Part shown: positions 28,503 through 38,797 of the stretch, in pieces | How the letters are laid out: each line of letters opens with the position of its first letter | Numbering within the stretch: position 1 is the first letter of the stretch | NCBI GenBank assembly: GCA_047601445.1 | Contig: JASGJH010000001.1 | Location: 7,104,001-7,168,000 of the forward strand | DNA: 64,000 bases | Direction of reading: 5' to 3' | From: Myxococcales bacterium | GTDB lineage: Bacteria; Myxococcota_A; Polyangia; Polyangiales; DASUME01 | Program-made: the position numbers and the translations under genes | The notes under the pieces: generated by a model | Told to the model about the DNA's origin: nothing | Seen by the model: only the letters and a program-made list of their open reading frames with translations | Databases searched by the model: none

Positions 28503-30222
28503 ATGGATGACGCGCGAAGCAGAAGCAGCGTGCTCGCGCCCCTGCATGCGCTCTCCGTGCTGGTGGTGGACGCCCAGGCCAGTGGGGCCACCCCTGCCCA
28601 TGGGGACCTACTCGAACTTGGCTGGAGCGTGTGCACTCCCCAGGCGCCACCCGCGGTCCCGGTCTCGCGCTGGGTCGTGCCGCGCACCACGCGACGCGTC
28701 TCCGGACCGGTGCGGGAATTGACGGGCTGGAGCGAGGCTTGTCTGGCAGAAGCCGTCTCGGAGCAGGCATTGTTCGAGGAATTCGACGCCACCGTGCGGG
28801 CCCTCGCGGAGCAAGGCGGCCTGCCGCTGGGCGTCCCGACCGTGATCCACTTTGCGCGCTTCGAGCTGCCCTTCCTGCGCGATCTCTATCAGCGGCTCGC
28901 CCCGGAACGGGGCTTCCCGCTCCAGATCGTGTGCACCCACCAGATCTCCGAGCGTCTCTTCCCGGACCTGCCGCGACGTAACATCCGCGCGCTCGCGGGC
29001 TTCCTGGGCCACTCGCCGGGCCTCTTGCGTCGAGCCGCTGGACACGTGGAGGCCAGCGCGTTCATCTGGTGCTCGCTGGCGTCCCGTCTCGCGGACCAAG
29101 GCATCCACGACTGGCACGAGCTTTCGCAGTGGTTGACCCAGCCCGCGGCGCGTACCCGCAGCGCGCGCCGCAGCTACCCGCTCCCGGTAGAGCGTCGCCG
29201 GGCGTTGCCCGACAAGCCCGGGGTGTACCGCTTCTTGCGCCCGAACGGCGACGTGATCTACGTAGGCAAGGCCACCAGCCTCAAGAAGCGCATCGCGGGC
29301 CATTTCCGCAGCGGAGGCAAGGCCACCGAGCGCGCGCTCGAGCTCCTCACCCAGGTCCACGACATCGACTTCACGGAGACTCCCAGCGTGCTCGAGGCGG
29401 CTCTGCTCGAGACCGACCAAATCAAGGCCCTCGATCCGCCCTACAATCTGCAGCTCAAGCTGGAAGACCGGCGCGCTTGGTTCGTCGATCGCAGGCGCGA
29501 TAGCGCCGCGTCGACACCCGACGGCGAGCACACGATTGGCCCGCTGCCCTCGCGCCGTGCCCTCCAGGCGCTGCCAGCCATGGTCACCCTGGCGGGGGGC
29601 GCGCAGATCACGCCGCAGTTGCAGGCGCGCGTGCTCTCGGTGCCGACACCCTGGTTGCCCGAGCCGGCCCTGTTCGCGGAGGGCTTCGCGGCCTTCGAGC
29701 GCGAGCTGCTGCGCGCGGTGGCGGGCCCGCCGCTCACGCGGGTGCTCCAGGCATCGCGCGCGCTGTGGCTCACACGCCGCTATGCCGAGCTCGAGTCGGA
29801 CAGCGACGAGGAGACCGATGAGCTCTGGGATCTGGCCCGCGTGCGCCGACGTTTGGAGCGCGGGCTCGTGCATTCGGGGTTGCTGGAGCGCCGTGCGCGC
29901 TGGTTGTGTCTACTCTCCGAGTGCGATCTCGCCTTTCGCGAGCGCGGCATGCCGCAGCCGCGGGCCCTCAGCATGCGAGCAGGGGAGATCACCTCACTCG
30001 GCGAGCTCTCGAGCCTGGTCGATTCTCGCGGGCCTGCCTCCTCATGGGTTGGGACCGCGTGCACGGCGTCAGGGGTGCTTCGACGCGACCCGCTACGACC
30101 GCCTGAGAGTGCTCGCCACCGAGCTCGCGCGGGTCCAGAGCGAACAAGGCGAGCTAGCCCTGCGTTTGGGGCGCCACGTGCTCAGTGGGGACCCATTGAC
30201 CCGGCTCATGCGGTTGGTTTGA
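28503..30222 (+). CDS. DnaQ-like exonuclease-fold / GIY-YIG (UvrC N-terminal type) fusion, apparent +1 frameshift near 30018
   Basis: 'PGVYRFL..IYVGKATSLKKR..E..PPYN'; in-frame stop is 30329, but the protein-like C-terminus reads in the +1 frame to 30222. Confidence 0.75.
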
Positions 30223-30325
30223 CCGAGCGCGCTGACAACTACCGCAAGCAGCGAGCGGGCACGAGCACGGGCTCGCCGGCAAGATTGCCCGCTGGCACGG
30301 CGGCAGGCGGACGGGGCAGCGCCTG

Positions 30326-30799
30326 CTAGGCCGGCGTGATCCGCTGATACTTGGCCGCCTGGCCGCAGCGCTCGCCGGCGGCGTCCAACAGGTTCCACAT
30401 CGTGACCTCTTCGATCCAGAAGCGTCGACCGGACTTGGCGATTCGCAGCCCACGGTAGCCCTCGGCGTAGCCGTGGATTCTCACTTGCTGCACGAAGTGC
30501 TCGCGCTCCTCGCGTCGGTCGGGCTCCGCTGACAGCCGCGACGGGAGCCCCAGGAACTCCGCGGCCGAGTACTCGAAGCAGCGCAGCACGGTTTGGTTGG
30601 CGTAGGTGAAGCGCGGGTCGGCTTCCGCGCTGTGCGCGAGCAGGCAGAAGGGCGCCTCGGCGTAGAGCCAGTGGGCCAGGCTCGGAAGGTCGTCGTCCTT
30701 CACGCCCGCGACACGCTCGACCAAAGGTCGTCCCAGCAGGCGCCGGTGCGAGTCGAGGATGATGCGGACATGGGCGAGGTCGTAGGGCAGGGCAGTCAC
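30326..30799 (-). CDS. Stand-alone MEKHLA domain protein
   Basis: 'APFCLLAH..DPRFTYAN', 'PSRLSAE', 'GRRFWIE..WNL..GQAA'. Confidence 0.9.
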   Translation of the reverse strand: MTALPYDLAHVRIILDSHRRLLGRPLVERVAGVKDDDLPSLAHWLYAEAPFCLLAHSAEADPRFTYANQTVLRCFEYSAAEFLGLPSRLSAEPDRREEREHFVQQVRIHGYAEGYRGLRIAKSGRRFWIEEVTMWNLLDAAGERCGQAAKYQRITPA

Positions 30800-30834
30800 G
30801 GCGAGGATCCTTCGGTGCTAGGCTGGTTCCTACC

Positions 30835-31611
30835 ATGTTCGATTGGTGGCGAGAGCGTAAGCGCGAGCAAATCCTGGCCGAGCCCTTCCCTGAGCCGCAA
30901 CGCGCAGTGCTCGAGCGCAACGTGGCCCACTACCGACGACTCGATGCCGACGAGCAGCAGCGTTTGCGAGATCTAGTGCAGGTCTTCGTGGCCGAGAAGC
31001 ACTGGGAGGGGTGTGGTGGGCTCGAGCTCAGCGAGGACATGAAGTTCACCATCGCGGCCCAGGCGTGCATATTGATCCTGGAGCTTCCCCACCGGCTGTA
31101 CGAGAACGTCGAGTCCATCTTCGTGTACCCGAGCGCAGTGCTGAGGCCCGAGCAAGAGCAGGGCGTGTTCACGCGCTCGCGCAACTTGGTCGCGAGCGGC
31201 CCCATTGCCCTCCTCGGAGAGGCGCACGTGCGAGGTCCCGTGGTCTTGGCGTGGGACCGCGTGCTGCGCGACGGACAACACGAGCGCGACGGTCATAACC
31301 TCGTCTACCACGAGTTCGCGCACAAGCTGGACATGCTCGATGGTACGCCGGACGGCACGCCGCCGCTGGTCTCGCGCGACCAGCGTGAGCAATGGCACGA
31401 GGTCTGCGAGCGCGTGTTCTTGGATTTGCGGCGACGCACCCAGCGCGGCGAGCCCACCTTCATCGACCAGTACGGGTCCACCAACGAGGCGGAGTTCTTC
31501 GCCGTGATCACCGAGCAGTTTTTCGAGCAGCCGCGCGCCCTGCGCAAGGCTGAGCCCGAGCTCTACCAGGTGCTGAGCGCGTTCTATCGGCAGGACCCGG
31601 CCGCGCGCTGA
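30835..31611 (+). CDS. MtfA family zinc peptidase (M90)
   Basis: 'IAAQAC', 'NLVYHEFAHKLD', 'EFFAVITEQFFEQP'. Confidence 0.92.
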   Translation: MFDWWRERKREQILAEPFPEPQRAVLERNVAHYRRLDADEQQRLRDLVQVFVAEKHWEGCGGLELSEDMKFTIAAQACILILELPHRLYENVESIFVYPSAVLRPEQEQGVFTRSRNLVASGPIALLGEAHVRGPVVLAWDRVLRDGQHERDGHNLVYHEFAHKLDMLDGTPDGTPPLVSRDQREQWHEVCERVFLDLRRRTQRGEPTFIDQYGSTNEAEFFAVITEQFFEQPRALRKAEPELYQVLSAFYRQDPAAR

Positions 31612-32039
31612 GGCGTGCGAGCGGAAGCTCAAGCCCCGGCGCCTTGGGTCGCAGACAAAGTGAGCTGTGAAGCTTCCCAGCGCCCATGAACGATTTCTCT
31701 CGCTGATAAATTACTCAGACGAGGCAGAGCGTGGGCAAAGTCTGCGTGCGATCCGCAGCGTGAGGACCCTCCGAGAGATTGGACTCCAAACCCGCTGCGT
31801 AAGGTTTGTTCAAGTGAAACGGCGAAAAAAACCGGCGAAGTTGAAGCCTTGCCCAAGCTGCTGTGCCGTGAAATTTTCGCCCTTGGAGGGCTTGCCATCC
31901 GGGGCCTTGGGGTGTTCTTCCCAAGCCTTATTCGAGGCTATCGCACTCCACCTCTCAGGCGCTCTCAGCCTGGGCTGTTCTCCTTCCAAAATGCCGATGG
32001 CTCAGCCAGTGGGCGCTATCATGGCGCCCGGTAAGAGTC

Positions 32040-33137
32040 ATGACTTGGTTGAACAGTCTCCTGGATACGGCCGGATTCCCCGCGCGGTGGCACTGCGGCA
32101 ACTGGACACCCCTGCACGGTTGGCTTCACGTGTCGGCCGACTTGCTGGTGTTCGGCGCCTACGCCGCGATCCCGGTGGCGCTCGTGTACTTCATCCGCAA
32201 GCGCAGCGACGTTCCGTTCTTGCCCATCTTGTGGCTGTTCGCCGCGTTCATTCTGGCCTGCGGCTTCGGACATCTGGTCGACGCCACCATCTTTTGGGCA
32301 CCGCGTTACCGGCTCCTGACGGGCTCGAAGCTCATCACGGCCCTGGTCTCCTGGACCACCGTCATCGCGCTCGTACGCGTGTTGCCCAAGGCGCTGGCCC
32401 TGCACGCAGACCTGGATCGACGCGTGCAAGATCGTACCGCCGAGCTCTCCGCCATGCTCGTGGAGCGCGAGGTGCTGCTGCGTGAAGTCCACCACCGCGT
32501 GAAGAACAACCTGCAAATGATCCTGAGTCTGATCAACCTCCAGCGTCGTCGAGTCTCCGATGGAGCGGGCGAAGAGGCTCTCGGCTTGTGCGCCTCGCGC
32601 GTGCTCGCCATCGCCCAAGTGCACGAGCTCCTCTACGAGACCAAGAATGCCTCGCGCATCCCACTGGCGGCCTACGTGCGGGGGCTGGTGAGCGGCCTCG
32701 ACGGGGGCGTCGGACTCCTGCCCAAGGTGAACATCGAGACCGACGTGGACGATGTGATGGTGTCCGTGGAGAGCGGTGTGCCCTGTGGGCTCATCCTCAA
32801 TGAACTTCTGGCCAACGCCATCAAGCATGCCTTTCCCGGCGAGCGCCGGGGGACCATTAGCGTCTCCGTGCGCCGCTCGGCACCGGGTGAGCTCACCCTT
32901 CAGGTGCGCGACGACGGCGTCGGCCTGCCACCGGACTTCGACACTAGGCCCGGCAATTCTCTTGGGCTCAGCATCGTGCGCCGGTTGGCCAGCCAGTTGA
33001 AGGGCGAGCTCACTATCTCGCGCGAGCAGGGCACCACGTTTCGGGTCTCGTTCCCCGCGCAAGACCTGGTGCTGCGCGGTGAGGGGAGCGCGCCCCCTGT
33101 ATCCACGAACGTTCGACTGGAGGCCGCACTGCCATGA
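32040..33137 (+). CDS. Sensor histidine kinase (HisKA_2 type) with ETR1-like ethylene-binding TM domain
   Basis: 3-TM N-terminus 'ADLLVFGAYAAIP..FILACGFGHL..KLITALVS'; 'EVHHRVKNNLQ', 'NAIKHAF', 'DDGVG', 'SLGL'. Confidence 0.9.
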   Translation: MTWLNSLLDTAGFPARWHCGNWTPLHGWLHVSADLLVFGAYAAIPVALVYFIRKRSDVPFLPILWLFAAFILACGFGHLVDATIFWAPRYRLLTGSKLITALVSWTTVIALVRVLPKALALHADLDRRVQDRTAELSAMLVEREVLLREVHHRVKNNLQMILSLINLQRRRVSDGAGEEALGLCASRVLAIAQVHELLYETKNASRIPLAAYVRGLVSGLDGGVGLLPKVNIETDVDDVMVSVESGVPCGLILNELLANAIKHAFPGERRGTISVSVRRSAPGELTLQVRDDGVGLPPDFDTRPGNSLGLSIVRRLASQLKGELTISREQGTTFRVSFPAQDLVLRGEGSAPPVSTNVRLEAALP

Positions 33138-33778
33138 ATAGCGAGTTGTCACGCTTCGAGGAAAGTCCAGGCCGCGTCATGATCGTCGAGGACGATCGTC
33201 TGGTCGCCCTCGATCTGGAGACCATGTTGGAGGGCTTCGGTTTCAAGCTGTGCCCGACGGCCCACTCGGCCGAGGACGCGCTGGACATCGCCCACCGTCA
33301 TCAGCCCGACCTGGTGCTGATGGACATTCGCCTGGAAGGCGAGATGGACGGGATCACCGCGGCTTCCGTGCTGAGCGAGAAGCTGGGCATCCAGGTGGTC
33401 TACTTGACCGCCCACTCGGATCTCTCCACCGTGAACCGCGCCAAGGAGACGCATCCTTACGGGTATCTGCTGAAGCCCGTGCGCGCCCTCGACCTGCGCT
33501 GCTGTCTGGAGGTAGCCCTGCACAAGGCGCGGCACTCGCCGCACTCGTCCGGCAGCGAGTCCAAGACGGTCTCGTCGACCCTGCTCAACGGGCTCAGCGC
33601 CCGCGAAGTCGAGGTGCTCGGGCTGATCGCGCGCGGCCACACCAGCAAGGACATCGCCCAGGTCCTCAACATCGCCAAGCCCACCGTGGACACCTACCGC
33701 AGCCGCCTGGCCGACAAGCTCGGCGTGCGCAGTCGCAGCGAACTGGTGGCCATCGCGGGCCGAGCCGGCCTCTTGTAG
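33134..33778 (+). CDS. Response regulator (REC + LuxR HTH)
   Basis: 'IVEDD', 'LVLMDI', 'LLKP'; 'LSAREVEVL..TSKDIA..TVDTYRSRL'; ATGA overlap with the kinase. Confidence 0.93.
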   Translation: MNSELSRFEESPGRVMIVEDDRLVALDLETMLEGFGFKLCPTAHSAEDALDIAHRHQPDLVLMDIRLEGEMDGITAASVLSEKLGIQVVYLTAHSDLSTVNRAKETHPYGYLLKPVRALDLRCCLEVALHKARHSPHSSGSESKTVSSTLLNGLSAREVEVLGLIARGHTSKDIAQVLNIAKPTVDTYRSRLADKLGVRSRSELVAIAGRAGLL

Positions 33779-33940
33779 AGCACCCCCTAGTACTCCGAAA
33801 ACGCCCTGAAACGTTGGCGATTTCGCCGGAAAACGGGCGGACAGCACATTTTTGTCCGCTTTTCCGACGCGATTGTCGAGACCGGGTCCTTCGGCGTTGG
33901 AACGACTCACGAATTCCTCGAATCGACCGGGCCTCCAGGG

Positions 33941-33955
33941 TGGCATGCGGCGTGC
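33941..33955 (+). promoter_or_regulatory. Putative sigma54 promoter
   Basis: TGGCATGCGGCGTGC (GG-N10-GC); inverted repeat GCGGACA-N9-TGTCCGC at 33837-33859 upstream. Confidence 0.55.
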
Positions 33956-34004
33956 GATGAGCGGCTTCAGACATCCGTCGCCACCCTTCGCCATCAGGTC
34001 CACC

Positions 34005-34202
34005 ATGCCTCCGTTCACGTCGATCGATGCGGCCTCCTTCCTCGGCTACGCGACCTTCGCCTGGGCCCTCTTCGTCAGCGCGGCCCTGCTTTCGCCGCCC
34101 GTCGCCGACGAGCCACGACCGGCCTCGGCCCGCACGCGCACCCTGGCCAAGCTGGCCCGCAGACGCAGCAGCTTGGCTCCGCGCGAACCGCGCCACGACT
34201 GA
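34005..34202 (+). CDS. Small membrane protein (65 aa), tentative
   Basis: One TM-like segment with basic tail; sigma54-like promoter 50 nt upstream. Confidence 0.4.
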   Translation: MPPFTSIDAASFLGYATFAWALFVSAALLSPPVADEPRPASARTRTLAKLARRRSSLAPREPRHD

Positions 34203-34338
34203 AGACCGCGAACCACCGCACTGGTCACGCAGGCGGATGAGCGCTTACCTCGGTCACTTGTAATTACTTGTCTCGCTTCCATAGCGAGCGTGCGATCGGT
34301 GCCCACTCAAAGGGCGATCCATGCCGAAGGAGGCACCC

Positions 34339-35073
34339 ATGAATGCCAAGCATTTCACGGCGCTTGCCCTGTGTTCCGGGCTCTTGGCCTGCAACAGCGG
34401 GAAGCAGCTGGAGCGAGCCGAGGAGACGCAAGCGGAGCACGCCCAGAGCGCGGCGGAGAAGCAAGCCGAGCTCGACAGCAAGCAACGAGACCAGCAGCAG
34501 AGGTTGTCGCGCGATATCGCAGAAGAGAACAAAGACCTCAAGAACGAGGAGATCAAGACCGAGGACCAGATGGCGAACACGGCCGAGCGGGCGGCCAACA
34601 AGCTCAACGCCGAGCAAGCCGAATACAACGAAGATCGCGTGAAGGTCGGCACCGACCAGGCGATGAAGCGCGAGGATCTCAACGAAGAGCAGCAAGAGCA
34701 GCGCGCCAAGCTCGACAAGAAGCTCGCCGACCAGCGCAGCGAGGACGCCGAGCGCGTTCAGAAGGCCGAGGCCAAGGTCCAGGAGCGGCGCAACGAGATC
34801 GCCAAGGATTCGCGCGAGCAACTCACGGACCTCGATCAGCGCACCGTGAGTGTGCGCAACAAGGTCGCCGATGCCGCGGACGCCGAGACGCGCGACAAGG
34901 CGAACAAGGAGCTGGCGGCCGTGCCGGCCCAGCGCGATGCCATCGAGCGAGACATCGAAGCCCTCGACACCATCAAGGCCGAGAACCTGAGCCGCGCCCG
35001 GTCGCAGCTCAAAGATCGTCTGTCGAACCTGGACGACACGCTCGACCGCGCCGAGAACGACCTGGTGCGCTGA
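34339..35073 (+). CDS. Coiled-coil hydrophilic lipoprotein
   Basis: AAGGAGG RBS, lipobox LLAC, E/K/Q/D/A-rich helical sequence. Confidence 0.85.
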   Translation: MNAKHFTALALCSGLLACNSGKQLERAEETQAEHAQSAAEKQAELDSKQRDQQQRLSRDIAEENKDLKNEEIKTEDQMANTAERAANKLNAEQAEYNEDRVKVGTDQAMKREDLNEEQQEQRAKLDKKLADQRSEDAERVQKAEAKVQERRNEIAKDSREQLTDLDQRTVSVRNKVADAADAETRDKANKELAAVPAQRDAIERDIEALDTIKAENLSRARSQLKDRLSNLDDTLDRAENDLVR

Positions 35074-35208
35074 CGAAGGTGCCGAGCGCGCGGCGCGAGA
35101 GCGAGCCCCGGCATCGCCTCCTCGGCCCATTTCGTGTTCGGGCCTCGAAACGCTGTGCCGTCACTGCGCCGGTTCGTGAGCGAAGCGGACCCGCGCTGAG
35201 GCGAGACC

Positions 35209-35281
35209 GCGGGAAGGTCGCGTGAGCTCCCCGCGATAAGCCGCGACGGCGGGGAAGTCGCATGGCCCCCCTGTGATAAGC
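35209..35281. repeat. Two tandem (40-nt period) copies of a palindromic intergenic element
   Basis: GCGGGAAGGTCGCGTGAGCTCCCCGC-GATAAGC plus a degenerate copy; 24/26 identical to the reverse complement of 61382-61407. Confidence 0.7.
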
Positions 35282-35283
35282 GT

Positions 35284-35718
35284 CTAGCTGAGGCGCTTCT
35301 TGAGCGCGCTGATCGCATCGTGGGTCCGCTTCTGCTCGGGTAGCAGCCGCGTCTCCACGAGCTGACGCGCTTCGATGTCCAGGTCCTTCATGTCCCGTCG
35401 GTAGTCGTCTCGCCCGTGGTCTTCGCCCTCCTCGAGCACGGCGATGGCGGTCTTCTCTCCGAGTGCCGTCGCCGTTCCTTCCACAGCCATGGCAAATTGC
35501 CCCCACAGCCCCGACGTCTGTGCCGGCGTGCCGCCACGAGGCCTGATCTCATCCGACAGCTCGGAGACGCGCGTGGAGTGGGATTGCTCGCACGCCTGCA
35601 GGATGGCCTGGTGTGACGGAAGCTTCTTGATCGCCTGCCGATACGCCTCGACCGCCGACAGCTCACCGCGCAGGAACGAGTTCAAGTGGTTCACGGTGTC
35701 GATATTCGTGGCTGCCAT
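35284..35718 (-). CDS. Ferritin-like four-helix bundle protein (DUF2383/PA2169 type)
   Basis: AGGAGG RBS; 'LNSFLRGELSAVEAYRQA', 'LEEGEDHG..DY'. Confidence 0.88.
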   Translation of the reverse strand: MAATNIDTVNHLNSFLRGELSAVEAYRQAIKKLPSHQAILQACEQSHSTRVSELSDEIRPRGGTPAQTSGLWGQFAMAVEGTATALGEKTAIAVLEEGEDHGRDDYRRDMKDLDIEARQLVETRLLPEQKRTHDAISALKKRLS

Positions 35719-35756
35719 GGTTCCTCCTGGGGTTTGGAACAGGTTCACCACAGCTC

Positions 35757-35772
35757 GCATCAACTGGGCCAA
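35757..35772 (-). promoter_or_regulatory. Putative sigma54 promoter
   Basis: Minus strand TTGGCCCAGTTGATGC, about 39 nt upstream of ATG 35718. Confidence 0.55.
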
Positions 35773-36154
35773 GGTCGCAGCCGCGCCCATCCCGCGTCGC
35801 ACGCGACTTGGCCGTCTCTCGAGGGCTGCGAGGGAGGTGCGGCGCAGGTCGTGTCAGCCGCTTGCGTACGTGTGCGCCAAACGTCTCCCGCCGCCGCCAG
35901 AACGCGAGACCGTCAGATCTTCCAGACTCTCTCCGCGCTGACTCGCCGTCGTGCAGAGTTGGTTTCGATTGCTTCGTGTTTGCAACGCGGCGCTGCTCGA
36001 ACGCCCGTTGTGGTCACTGGCGGCGGAGTTTTACTCTTGTTTTGCTATGCGAATCGTCGCCGCGATTACACGCGCGAGGGGGGTCGATGGCCGCGCGTAG
36101 TGCCTGCGAGGTTGCATCTTGCAATGCGCGAATGAGGCTGATTGAATTTACAGC

Positions 36155-37393: not shown

Positions 37394-38797
37394 ATGAAGG
37401 CAGTCGAGCCGAGCGATCAGTTGTTTTTGTTCATCGAGCGCAGGCAACAGCCGATGCACGTGGGGGGCTTGCAGCTCTTCTCCCTGCCTGAGGGAGCGGG
37501 GCCCAAGTTCGTGCTCGACCTCGTGGAGCAACTGCGCGCCTTCCGTCATCCGTCGCCGCCCTTCAACAAGCGCTTGGTGTCGCGCTTCGGAGCTTCCTTC
37601 TGGGAAGAAGACACCGAGCTCGATCTGGACCTGCACTTGCGTCACGGCGCCCTGCCGCAGCCGGGCCGCGTGCGTGAGCTTCTGAGCTTGGTCTCCGCGG
37701 AGCACTCCATCTTGCTCGATCGCGAGCGCCCGCTCTGGGAGACGCACCTCATCGAGGGCCTCTCGCAGGGGCGCTTCGCCATGTACACCAAGGTCCACCA
37801 CGGCTTGATGGACGGCATCTCCGTGATGCGTCTCGGCATGCAAGCGCTCTCGCACGACCCGAACGAGCGCAATATGCCGCCCTTCTGGGCCCTCCCGCGC
37901 AAGCGCCGCATCCGCGACGCCGAAGCCAACGTCGGCTTCTACACGGACACCACAGCGCGCTACCTTGGGGCCACGCCGGCCGTGCTGCGCGAAGCCTTCA
38001 ACGTTTTCGTGCGCGCGCAGCGCAACCCGGACAGCGTGGGCTTGTATGCCGCGCCCCACTGCAAGCTGAGCGAGAAGATCACGGGCTCGCGCCGCGTGGC
38101 ATGTCAGTCCTATTCACTCACGCGGGTGAAGGCCATCGCCAAAGTGTTCGGCGCCACCGTGAACGACGTGGTGCTCGGGGTGTGCAGCAGCGCGCTGCGC
38201 GGCTACCTGATGAACCAGAACGCCCTGCCCGATAAGCCCCTGATCGCCATGGTGCCCATGTCCATCCGCAAGGACGACAGCGCCGGTGGCAATCAGTTCG
38301 CCGTCATCCTGACCAACCTCGGCACGCACCTGAGCGACCCGGTCGAGCGTCTGCGCGTGATCAAGAACTCGGTGGACGAAGCCAAGACGCGCTACGCCCA
38401 GATGAACAACGAGGAGAGCTCCACGTTCAGCGCAATGGCGCTGGCTCCCGTGCTCTACAACCTGTTCACCGGCCTCAGGCCCAAGTGGATGTCGTTCAAC
38501 GTGGTGATCTCCAACGTGCCTGGCCCCGAGAAGCCCCTCTATATGAACGGCGCGCGCCTCGAGGGCATGTATCCGGTGTCCATCGTGCACGACCACAACG
38601 CGCTGAACATCACCTTCACCAGCTATCGCGACCAGCTCGAGTTCGGCGTGGTCGGCTGCCGGCGCACGTTGCCCTCGATGCAGCGATTGCTGGACCACAT
38701 CGAGCGCGCCATCACCGAGTTCGAGCGCGCGGCCGGGCTCGGCGGCAAGTCGACGCCGGTCGAGAACGCCACCAAGTGGTCATTCCTCGACGCCTAG
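37394..38797 (+). CDS. Wax ester synthase / diacylglycerol acyltransferase (WS/DGAT)
   Basis: 'PMHVGG', 'LDRERPLWE', catalytic 'HHGLMDG', 'ISNVPGP'. Confidence 0.95.
   Translation: MKAVEPSDQLFLFIERRQQPMHVGGLQLFSLPEGAGPKFVLDLVEQLRAFRHPSPPFNKRLVSRFGASFWEEDTELDLDLHLRHGALPQPGRVRELLSLVSAEHSILLDRERPLWETHLIEGLSQGRFAMYTKVHHGLMDGISVMRLGMQALSHDPNERNMPPFWALPRKRRIRDAEANVGFYTDTTARYLGATPAVLREAFNVFVRAQRNPDSVGLYAAPHCKLSEKITGSRRVACQSYSLTRVKAIAKVFGATVNDVVLGVCSSALRGYLMNQNALPDKPLIAMVPMSIRKDDSAGGNQFAVILTNLGTHLSDPVERLRVIKNSVDEAKTRYAQMNNEESSTFSAMALAPVLYNLFTGLRPKWMSFNVVISNVPGPEKPLYMNGARLEGMYPVSIVHDHNALNITFTSYRDQLEFGVVGCRRTLPSMQRLLDHIERAITEFERAAGLGGKSTPVENATKWSFLDA

What the first reader, a model, noticed from the sequence alone, without database searches (positions are those of the whole stretch)
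32040..33778. Compact ethylene-receptor-like two-component system in a myxobacterium
Seen: the kinase N-terminus aligns by eye, without gaps (offset +9), to the first two TM helices of the Arabidopsis ETR1 ethylene-binding domain. D34, Y41, I44, P45, I71, C74 and H78 correspond to ETR1 D25, Y32, I35, P36, I62, C65 and H69, and TM3 keeps the K-x2-T-x3-S-x2-T...P pattern. The domain connects directly to a HisKA_2-type kinase with no GAF or PAS domain, and the gene is translationally coupled (ATGA) to a REC-LuxR regulator. Established: those seven residues are required for Cu(I)-dependent ethylene binding, and functional bacterial homologues are known in Synechocystis and Azospirillum. Inference: this is a minimal ethylene (or other Cu-ligand gas) sensor with its own transcription factor. 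I am not aware of one characterised in Myxococcota. It could let a soil predator sense plant or microbial ethylene.
Basis: partly seen in the sequence, partly recalled or inferred. Interest (0 to 1): 0.85.

Follow-up and report, generated by a model that had tools for sequence, protein, structure and literature searches.

The report
Second-branch ethylene-type receptor in myxobacterium
An uncultured myxobacterium carries a membrane sensor kinase with the copper-site residues of plant ethylene receptors, next to a DNA-binding regulator gene. It likely senses ethylene or a similar gas, and it belongs to a separate branch of this receptor family for which I found no binding test.

Summary
Observation confirmed. 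32040-33137 encodes ETR1_N (Pfam E 1e-33), HisKA_2 and HATPase, overlapping (ATGA) a REC-LuxR gene. It aligns without internal gaps to the proven receptor AzoEtr1 and keeps D34, Y41, I44, P45, I71, C74, H78 and K97. The genome falls in Polyangiales. The two genes look like a cognate pair: this is the only HisKA_2 kinase found in the genome, and the pair recurs in metagenomic orthologues.

It is less unusual than claimed. The domain occurs in 39 of 301 genomes of the order and twice in this genome. PAS/GAF-free forms are common (53 of the 120 best hits). The scan noted this domain before on other DNA (62 findings), once with a NarL-type regulator.

It occurs in Planctomycetota, Polyangiales, Verrucomicrobiota and Bacteroidota, apart from AzoEtr1 and all 31 cyanobacterial domains typed. 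This orthologue group has Ala at the ETR1 F33 and S34 positions, changes that lower binding in ETR1.

Best reading: a Cu(I) ethylene-type receptor driving a LuxR regulator (0.62). Ligand, target genes, habitat and predation are untested.

The parts
32040..33137 (+). Sensor histidine kinase, 365 aa: ETR1_N (RW branch), helical linker, HisKA_2, HATPase_c
   Evidence: full-length orthologues start at the equivalent Met
32079..32129 (+). N-terminal motif P14-A-R16-W17-H-C19-G20-x-W22...H26-G27-x-x-H30 that marks the RW branch (PHGxC in the AzoEtr1 type); predicted periplasmic side
   Evidence: topology inferred from ETR1
32115..32402 (+). Ethylene-binding-type three-helix membrane domain (residues 26-121) with D34, Y41, I44, P45, I71, C74, H78, K97
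   Evidence: Pfam E 1.2e-33; AzoEtr1 alignment; three hydrophobic peaks; AF2 helices 24-54, 61-83, 90-146, pLDDT 95
32484..32696 (+). HisKA_2 phosphoacceptor domain; H152 of the HR motif is the predicted phospho-His
   Evidence: matches the blue-light kinase of PDB 4R39, E 2e-23; H152/R153 in 22 of 22 orthologues
32790..33062 (+). HATPase_c domain (N259, D291, G293, G309)
33134..33778 (+). Response regulator, 214 aa, REC plus LuxR/GerE HTH; start overlaps the kinase stop (ATGA, 33134-33137)
   Evidence: same overlap in L134
33176..33499 (+). REC domain with E19-D20-D21, D64 (predicted phosphoacceptor), T92, K114
   Evidence: D64/T92/K114 in 35 of 35 orthologues
33593..33757 (+). LuxR-type DNA-binding domain
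   Evidence: Pfam GerE E 1e-17; 97% identical in L134
31985..32035 (+). Non-coding block conserved with L134 (TCCAAAAT.CCGATGGCTC, then a TAT(C/G)AT hexamer at 32017-32022); candidate promoter of the pair
   Evidence: two-sequence alignment only; the sigma-70 consensus scan found no site

Best explanation
The two genes encode a membrane kinase with an ethylene-receptor-type domain and an overlapping REC-LuxR regulator, which likely form a copper-dependent ethylene-sensing two-component system. Shown by sequence: the domain, its residues, the intact kinase and receiver motifs, and the gene coupling. Inferred from ETR1, AzoEtr1 and SynEtr1: the kinase dimerises in the inner membrane, C74 and H78 hold Cu(I), D34 polarises H78 and bridges to K97, and ethylene binds the copper from within the membrane. 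Predicted: helix 3 runs on as one helix (residues 90-146) into the HisKA_2 domain, so ligand binding would shift the kinase state directly, without PAS or GAF. H152 would pass phosphate to D64, and the LuxR domain would switch transcription. By analogy the receptor is likely active in air and turned off by ethylene. Ala42/Ala43 at the F33/S34 positions suggest weaker or faster-releasing binding than ETR1. Target genes are not identified.
For: ETR1_N E 1.2e-33. All seven binding positions plus K97, T100, S104 and P116 are identical to AzoEtr1, which binds 14C-ethylene and needs D35 and C75 for function (PMC11819568). The seven residues and K97 are kept in 22 of 22 close orthologues. All seven are kept in 115 of 116 RW-type domains of the first alignment (nearest database hits plus loci) and in 22 of 23 RW domains from the phylum survey, against 70 of 95 of the AzoEtr1 type. 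G77 at the T68 position is probably tolerated, since ETR1 T68A still bound ethylene (PMC10266040). Cognate pair: only HisKA_2 match in the genome; same order and overlap in L134 at 81% and 83% identity; 11 of the 21 closest kinase orthologues share an identical longest-contig length with a regulator orthologue, two on contigs of 1,977 and 2,571 bp that barely hold both genes (indirect); pairwise identities of the 12 pairs covary (rho 0.52, permutation p 0.004, kin not independent); 42 of 79 unrelated HisKA_2 loci carry a REC at least 40% identical to this one, while the best other REC that tblastn returned in this genome is 36% (no control set of other kinase loci).
Against: No binding or phosphotransfer data exist for this protein, and I found no test of any RW-branch member. 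The branch is separated from AzoEtr1 by a long, fully supported branch. A42 and A43 correspond to ETR1 F33A (about 15% binding) and S34A (about 55%) (PMC11971883); a small residue at 42 occurs in 0 of 95 AzoEtr1-type domains and in 20 of 22 orthologues as Ala. W105 and V108 replace V/L/I and A in helix 3, and the end of helix 2 differs. The sign of the response is borrowed from other receptors and is itself only predicted in Azospirillum.
Confidence: 0.62

Rival explanations
1. The Cu(I) site is kept but the RW-branch pocket is tuned to another copper ligand (a larger olefin, alkyne, CO, isocyanide or volatile sulfur compound), so that this receptor and the AzoEtr1-type paralogue in the same genome read different small molecules.
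For: Branch-specific residues in and around the bundle: R16, W17, G20, G27, A40, F85 in 23 of 23; W105 18 of 23; V108 17 of 23; F/W38 21 of 23. A42-A43 and G77 would enlarge the cavity in this orthologue group (inferred). The genome keeps one receptor of each branch with different kinase classes.
Against: All residues known to be needed for ethylene binding are retained, more strictly than in the AzoEtr1-type group. Several copies per genome are common in cyanobacteria within one branch, so two copies need not mean two ligands.
Confidence: 0.22
2. The kinase reports copper loading or redox state rather than a gas: C74/H78 and an outer C19/H26/H30/D81 cluster would bind Cu or form a disulfide and set kinase activity.
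For: C19 23 of 23, H30 21 of 23, D/E81 23 of 23 and H26 17 of 23 in the RW branch. H26 appears where the AzoEtr1 type has H16 (95 of 95 H16, 0 with H26), which suggests a preserved outer metal site. H26, H30 and D34 lie four residues apart on helix 1.
Against: The similar H16/C19/H30 set is present in AzoEtr1, a proven ethylene receptor. The single N-terminal Cys has been proposed to link the dimer (PMC6682694). None of the neighbouring genes scanned is a copper-handling gene.
Confidence: 0.1
3. The receptor signals, but not mainly through the adjacent LuxR regulator (cross-talk to another receiver, or a kinase-independent output as in plants).
For: Plant receptors signal largely without His-kinase activity, and phosphotransfer in Azospirillum is predicted, not shown. 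No operator for the regulator was found.
Against: Translational coupling, intact catalytic residues in both proteins, co-occurrence in orthologues, and the single HisKA_2 kinase of the genome.
Confidence: 0.06

Closest known systems
AzoEtr1 / AzoRR-etr1 of Azospirillum brasilense Sp7 (PMC11819568)
   Same: N-terminal three-helix ethylene-binding domain with the same seven residues and Lys (42% identity); C-terminal His kinase; regulator gene overlapping the kinase stop.
   Different: AzoEtr1 has a PAS domain and a classical HisKA, its regulator is a lone receiver of 135 aa, and its domain is of the PHGxC branch. Here: RW branch, no PAS, HisKA_2, REC-LuxR.
SynEtr1/UirS (Slr1212) with UirR (Slr1213) of Synechocystis PCC 6803 (PMC6682694, PMC3546692)
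   Same: Ethylene-binding domain on a His kinase that phosphorylates an adjacent DNA-binding response regulator.
   Different: SynEtr1 also has a light-sensing cyanobacteriochrome GAF domain and UirR is AraC-type. The SynEtr1 sequence was not fetched; all 31 cyanobacterial domains typed here are PH-type.
Arabidopsis ETR1 ethylene-binding domain (Pfam PF25487; PMC10266040, PMC6586836)
   Same: Cys/His Cu(I) pair, Asp-His-Lys network, and the helix 3 T, S and P positions.
   Different: ETR1 has GAF and receiver domains and two N-terminal Cys, and signals mainly without phosphotransfer. This protein has Ala at F33/S34 and Gly at T68, and a helix 2-3 segment three residues shorter.
HWE/HisKA_2 sensor kinases such as the blue-light kinase of PDB 4R39/4R3A and PhyK
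   Same: Kinase core (E 2e-23 to 4R39; NF051872 E 3e-35 but far below its cut-off of 750 bits).
   Different: Different input domain; the partner is REC-LuxR, not PhyR.

Membership tests
Ethylene receptors (ETR1-type binding domain) | Match to the ETR1_N domain family | tested here: met
   115.7 bits against a cut-off of 27; Atlas best hits ETR1_N at 0.94
Ethylene receptors (ETR1-type binding domain) | Three N-terminal membrane helices | tested here: met
   hydropathy peaks near 42, 70 and 106; AF2 helices, pLDDT 95
Ethylene receptors (ETR1-type binding domain) | Seven residues required for binding (D25, Y32, I35, P36, I62, C65, H69) | tested here: met
   identical to AzoEtr1 at all seven, mapping from PMC11819568; ETR1 itself not aligned; Y32 label recalled
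Ethylene receptors (ETR1-type binding domain) | Helix 3 signalling residues K91, T94, S98, P110 | tested here: met
   K97, T100, S104, P116
Ethylene receptors (ETR1-type binding domain) | Residues that support full binding (F33, S34) | tested here: not met
   A42, A43; ETR1 F33A about 15% and S34A about 55% binding, both still responsive in plants
Ethylene receptors (ETR1-type binding domain) | Saturable Cu(I)-dependent ethylene binding | not testable with these tools
   needs a binding assay
Ethylene receptors (ETR1-type binding domain) | Homodimer | not tested
   the complex-prediction queue was full, no job ran
HisKA_2 two-component system | H-box His (HR motif) with N, G1 and G2 boxes | tested here: met
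   H152-R153, N259, D291, G293, G309 conserved
HisKA_2 two-component system | Cognate receiver with acidic pocket, phospho-Asp, Thr and Lys, genetically linked | tested here: met
   E19-D20-D21, D64, T92, K114; overlap and co-occurrence
HisKA_2 two-component system | Phosphotransfer from kinase to regulator | not testable with these tools
   needs an in vitro assay
AzoEtr1-type (PHGxC) branch of bacterial receptors | PHxxC motif and grouping with AzoEtr1 | tested here: not met
   PARWHC motif; the RW group is one side of a branch with 100/99 support even without residues 1-30

The most novel reading that the evidence does not exclude
The RW branch is a second class of copper gas receptors, spread through Planctomycetota, Polyangiales, Verrucomicrobiota and Bacteroidota, with a rebuilt outer face (His moved from position 16 to 26, invariant Arg-Trp) and a repacked helix 3, that detects a ligand other than ethylene. 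This myxobacterium would then tell two gases apart with one receptor of each class, and this kinase-LuxR pair would be the smallest complete circuit for finding the ligand.
Probability: 0.22. Interest if true: 0.78.

Novelty: new variant of a known kind. Interest (0 to 1): 0.45.

Why it matters
Receptor-mediated ethylene binding has been shown in only a few microbes (Synechocystis, Rhizophagus and Azospirillum according to PMC11819568), and in Azospirillum the output pathway is unknown. This pair has a single input domain, an apparently insulated kinase class and its own DNA-binding regulator, so it is a simple system for testing how ligand binding controls kinase activity and a possible ethylene biosensor part. 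It also stands for a branch that made up 11 of 18 typed Planctomycetota domains and 9 of 31 typed Polyangiales domains and for which I found no test. One binding assay would show whether ethylene sensing extends to that branch or whether the fold has a second ligand.

Tried and rejected
1. Solved structures: no ethylene-binding-domain match by sequence or by Foldseek (0 at E<=0.001); uninformative.
2. Operator for the regulator: TGTAAT-N14/15-CATAGC occurs exactly twice in the genome, both next to the pair (34259 + and 36070 -; 0.04 expected genome-wide under independence), and once in L134. A congener (G007, 94% complete) keeps it with one mismatch before the same lipoprotein gene, in the syntenic locus that lacks the kinase and regulator. 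Neither the domain nor the regulator was found elsewhere in G007. I therefore rejected it as evidence for a target; four further lipoprotein homologue loci with a readable upstream region lack it.
3. The genome-contig scan keyed on kinase motifs and returned generic HisKA_2 loci; these were reused as a REC comparison set.
4. Viral contigs: no relative with this single query.
5. Sequencing runs: none was listed; no evidence on expression or habitat.
6. ACC deaminase: one match at 80 bits against a cut-off of 392, not called. Ethylene-forming enzymes were not searched.
7. Rfam: none in 30000-36000. No sigma-70 consensus site. GC of the genes (about 65%) matches the genome (66%), so there is no sign of recent foreign origin.
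8. Homodimer prediction: the queue was full, no job ran, no verdict. Cluster-member names could not be queried.
9. Wang 2006 and Lacey and Binder 2016 are not held; their species lists may already name myxobacterial or RW-type proteins.
10. The first tree was biased to nearest hits and held one mis-cut row (P0100); it was replaced by the survey-based trees.

Full report
Observation. The window holds two overlapping genes on the + strand: a 365-aa kinase (32040-33137) and a 214-aa regulator (33134-33778), joined by ATGA. Pfam gives ETR1_N at residues 26-121 (E 1.2e-33), HisKA_2 at 149-219 and HATPase_c at 251-341, with no PAS or GAF; the regulator is REC plus LuxR/GerE. ETR1 could not be fetched, so I used AzoEtr1, recovered from plasmid ABSP7_p1 as a 525-aa ORF. 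PMC11819568 maps ETR1 D25, C65, H69 and K91 to its D35, C75, H79 and K98 and states that it has all seven binding residues and binds ethylene. The alignment is gap-free after residue 2, 42% identical, and keeps D34, Y41, I44, P45, I71, C74, H78, K97, T100, S104, T107 and P116. AlphaFold2 on 101 sequences gives helices 24-54, 61-83 and 90-146 at pLDDT 95, so helix 3 is predicted to run on towards the kinase.

Host. Four MYXO-CTERM matches pass the cut-off, with none in 14 controls. The 16S gene is 84-85% identical to a named Polyangiaceae genome and 80% to a Nitrospirota one. That Polyangiaceae genome's order sample contains the same matches as this genome's order sample, so the order is Polyangiales. 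Habitat and lifestyle are unknown.

Is it a cognate pair? This is the only HisKA_2 match in the 9.5-Mb genome. H152-R153 is present in 22 of 22 close kinase orthologues, and D64, T92 and K114 in 35 of 35 regulator orthologues. Metagenome contig L134 has the order M90 peptidase, kinase (81%), regulator (83%), lipoprotein, with the same overlap; it was the only one of 10 loci from that scan with the pair. Of the 21 closest kinase orthologues (P0002-P0021, P0024), 11 share an identical longest-contig length with a regulator orthologue; four of the other ten lie on contigs under 1.5 kb. This is indirect. Identities across the 12 pairs covary (rho 0.52, p 0.004). Three of these pairs have a PAS domain in the kinase, so the PAS-free form is not fixed. 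The pair is patchy: the regulator was not found at E<=1e-40 in 400 other genomes of the order, including 9 congeners (only 7 candidates scored per genome), and congener G007 has the same locus without M90, kinase and regulator.

How common is the domain? It has 7,276 relatives at E<=0.001 and 601 at E<=1e-30 among 1.84 billion representatives. PF25487 matches 39 of 301 genomes of the order (own genome and the unpublished G122 included), 16 of 121 Planctomycetota, 18 of 51 Cyanobacteriota, 8 of 151 Verrucomicrobiota, 23 of 301 Pseudomonadota and 8 of 151 Bacteroidota. By my count of the Pfam column, 53 of the 120 best hits are kinases without an annotated PAS or GAF (19 HisKA_2, 16 HisKA, 18 HisKA plus receiver). 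The genome has a second receptor, ETR1_N-HisKA-HATPase, at C1:1429599-1430804. The 'minimal' layout is therefore ordinary.

Two branches. The domains split into a PHxxC type (AzoEtr1, the paralogue) and a PxRWxCG type (this protein). Typed domains (RW / PH / other): own order 9/21/1 (31 of 46 matches), Planctomycetota 11/5/2 (18 of 19), Verrucomicrobiota 2/6/2 (10 of 10), Bacteroidota 1/7/1 (9 of 9), Pseudomonadota 0/22/2 (24 of 24), Cyanobacteriota 0/31/0 (31 of 52). In the own order and in cyanobacteria the untyped matches tend to be the weaker ones and could include RW members. The 23 RW domains form one side of a branch with SH-aLRT 100 (43 of 95 PH rows sampled, 8 'other' rows left out). 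With residues 1-30 removed, support is 96 with the 'other' rows included, five of which fall inside, and 100/99 in a careful run with 33 PH rows (bootstrap not fully settled). The trees are unrooted. All seven binding residues are kept in 22 of 23 RW and 70 of 95 PH domains. RW marks are R16, W17, G20, G27, A40 and F85 (23 of 23), H26 (17 of 23, against 0 of 95), W105 and V108; H16 is present in 95 of 95 PH domains by definition and in no RW domain.

Pocket differences. This orthologue group has A42 (20 of 22), A43 and G77 (22 of 22) at ETR1 F33, S34 and T68. ETR1 F33A and S34A keep about 15% and 55% of binding but still respond in plants (PMC11971883), and T68A still binds (PMC10266040). No PH domain has a small residue at position 42 (0 of 95). 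V108 stands at ETR1 A102, the etr1-2 site (recalled). These changes do not remove the copper site, but they leave affinity and ligand open.

Mechanism. Best reading (0.62): Cu(I) on C74/H78, with D34 linking H78 and K97 as modelled for ETR1. Ethylene binding moves helix 3 and changes H152 autophosphorylation and transfer to D64. It is likely an inverse agonist, as proposed for the other receptors. Rivals: another copper ligand (0.22), a copper or redox sensor (0.10), output not through this regulator (0.06). No target is identified; a striking TGTAAT-N14/15-CATAGC element flanking the pair persists in a congener in which the pair was not found.

Novelty. Bacterial ethylene receptors with an adjacent regulator are known (AzoEtr1; SynEtr1 with the AraC-type UirR). 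Searches for myxobacterial or planctomycete receptors found nothing relevant: 'myxobacteri' with 'ethylene binding' gave 0 papers, 'planctomyc' gave 1 unrelated listing, and searches listed none; the library covers only openly licensed PMC papers and bioRxiv. Earlier notes of this scan hold 62 findings with the words ethylene receptor/ETR1/kinase, one with a FixJ/NarL-type regulator, none returned for Myxococcota or this branch. Verdict: a real, intact system; a new variant of a known kind; interest 0.45.

Papers seen. PMC11819568: abstract, Introduction, two Results sections, first part of the Discussion, list of supplements, and the S1 legend (sequences are a picture). PMC10266040: parts 1, 2, 4 and 5 of 8, and one supplement searched for four taxon names (0 hits). 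PMC11971883, PMC6682694, PMC6586836, PMC3546692, PMC6324907: passages only. Wang 2006 and Lacey and Binder 2016: not held; their results are taken second-hand, and their species tables may bear on the novelty claim.

Noticed in passing
G000:C1:1429599-1430804 (L001:1423-2628, +): Second ethylene-receptor-like kinase in the same genome, PHGHC type, ETR1_N-HisKA-HATPase with all seven residues and no overlapping regulator; an amino-acid-permease-like gene lies divergently upstream, and a kinase and a REC-REC-GGDEF-like gene lie nearby (read by eye).
   Followed up: partly
window 34259-34285 (+) and 36044-36070 (-); L134:6153; G007:C186:25696-25722: TGTAAT-N14/15-CATAGC occurs exactly twice in the genome, upstream of the coiled-coil lipoprotein gene (34321) and of the only DUF2383 gene (35284-35718, -). 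It is conserved before the lipoprotein in two relatives and looks like a rare promoter or operator for an unidentified factor.
   Followed up: partly
window 30835-33778 and 35284-35802: M90 peptidase, kinase and regulator, and separately DUF2383, are absent from the otherwise syntenic locus of congener G007 (MEKHLA, lipoprotein, orf36155, WS/DGAT), so the block was gained or lost as a unit.
   Followed up: partly
window 37394-38797: A wax ester/triacylglycerol synthase gene lies 3.6 kb downstream in this genome and in L134; ethylene raises storage polymer (PHB) in Azospirillum, but the gene is also there in G007 without the pair, so a link is unsupported.
   Followed up: partly
window 28503-30329: Protein that looks like an exonuclease (by eye) fused to GIY-YIG (Pfam); similarity in frame appears to fade near residue 510, and an overlapping ORF 29536-30222 suggests a possible frameshift.
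   Followed up: no
L230 = G1012:C1:328756-332043: A Bacteroidota genome has two tandem ETR1_N genes 800 bp apart, the first in a short 225-aa frame (RW type), the second divergent.
   Followed up: no
ESM Atlas result: Two clusters of short proteins (146 aa ETR1_N; 102 aa, no family) have phages as the commonest recorded taxon, hinting at stand-alone phage copies; one viral scan with this query found none.
   Followed up: partly
window 34005-34202 (+): A 65-codon hydrophobic ORF between regulator and lipoprotein, no Pfam match, absent from L134; may be spurious.
   Followed up: partly
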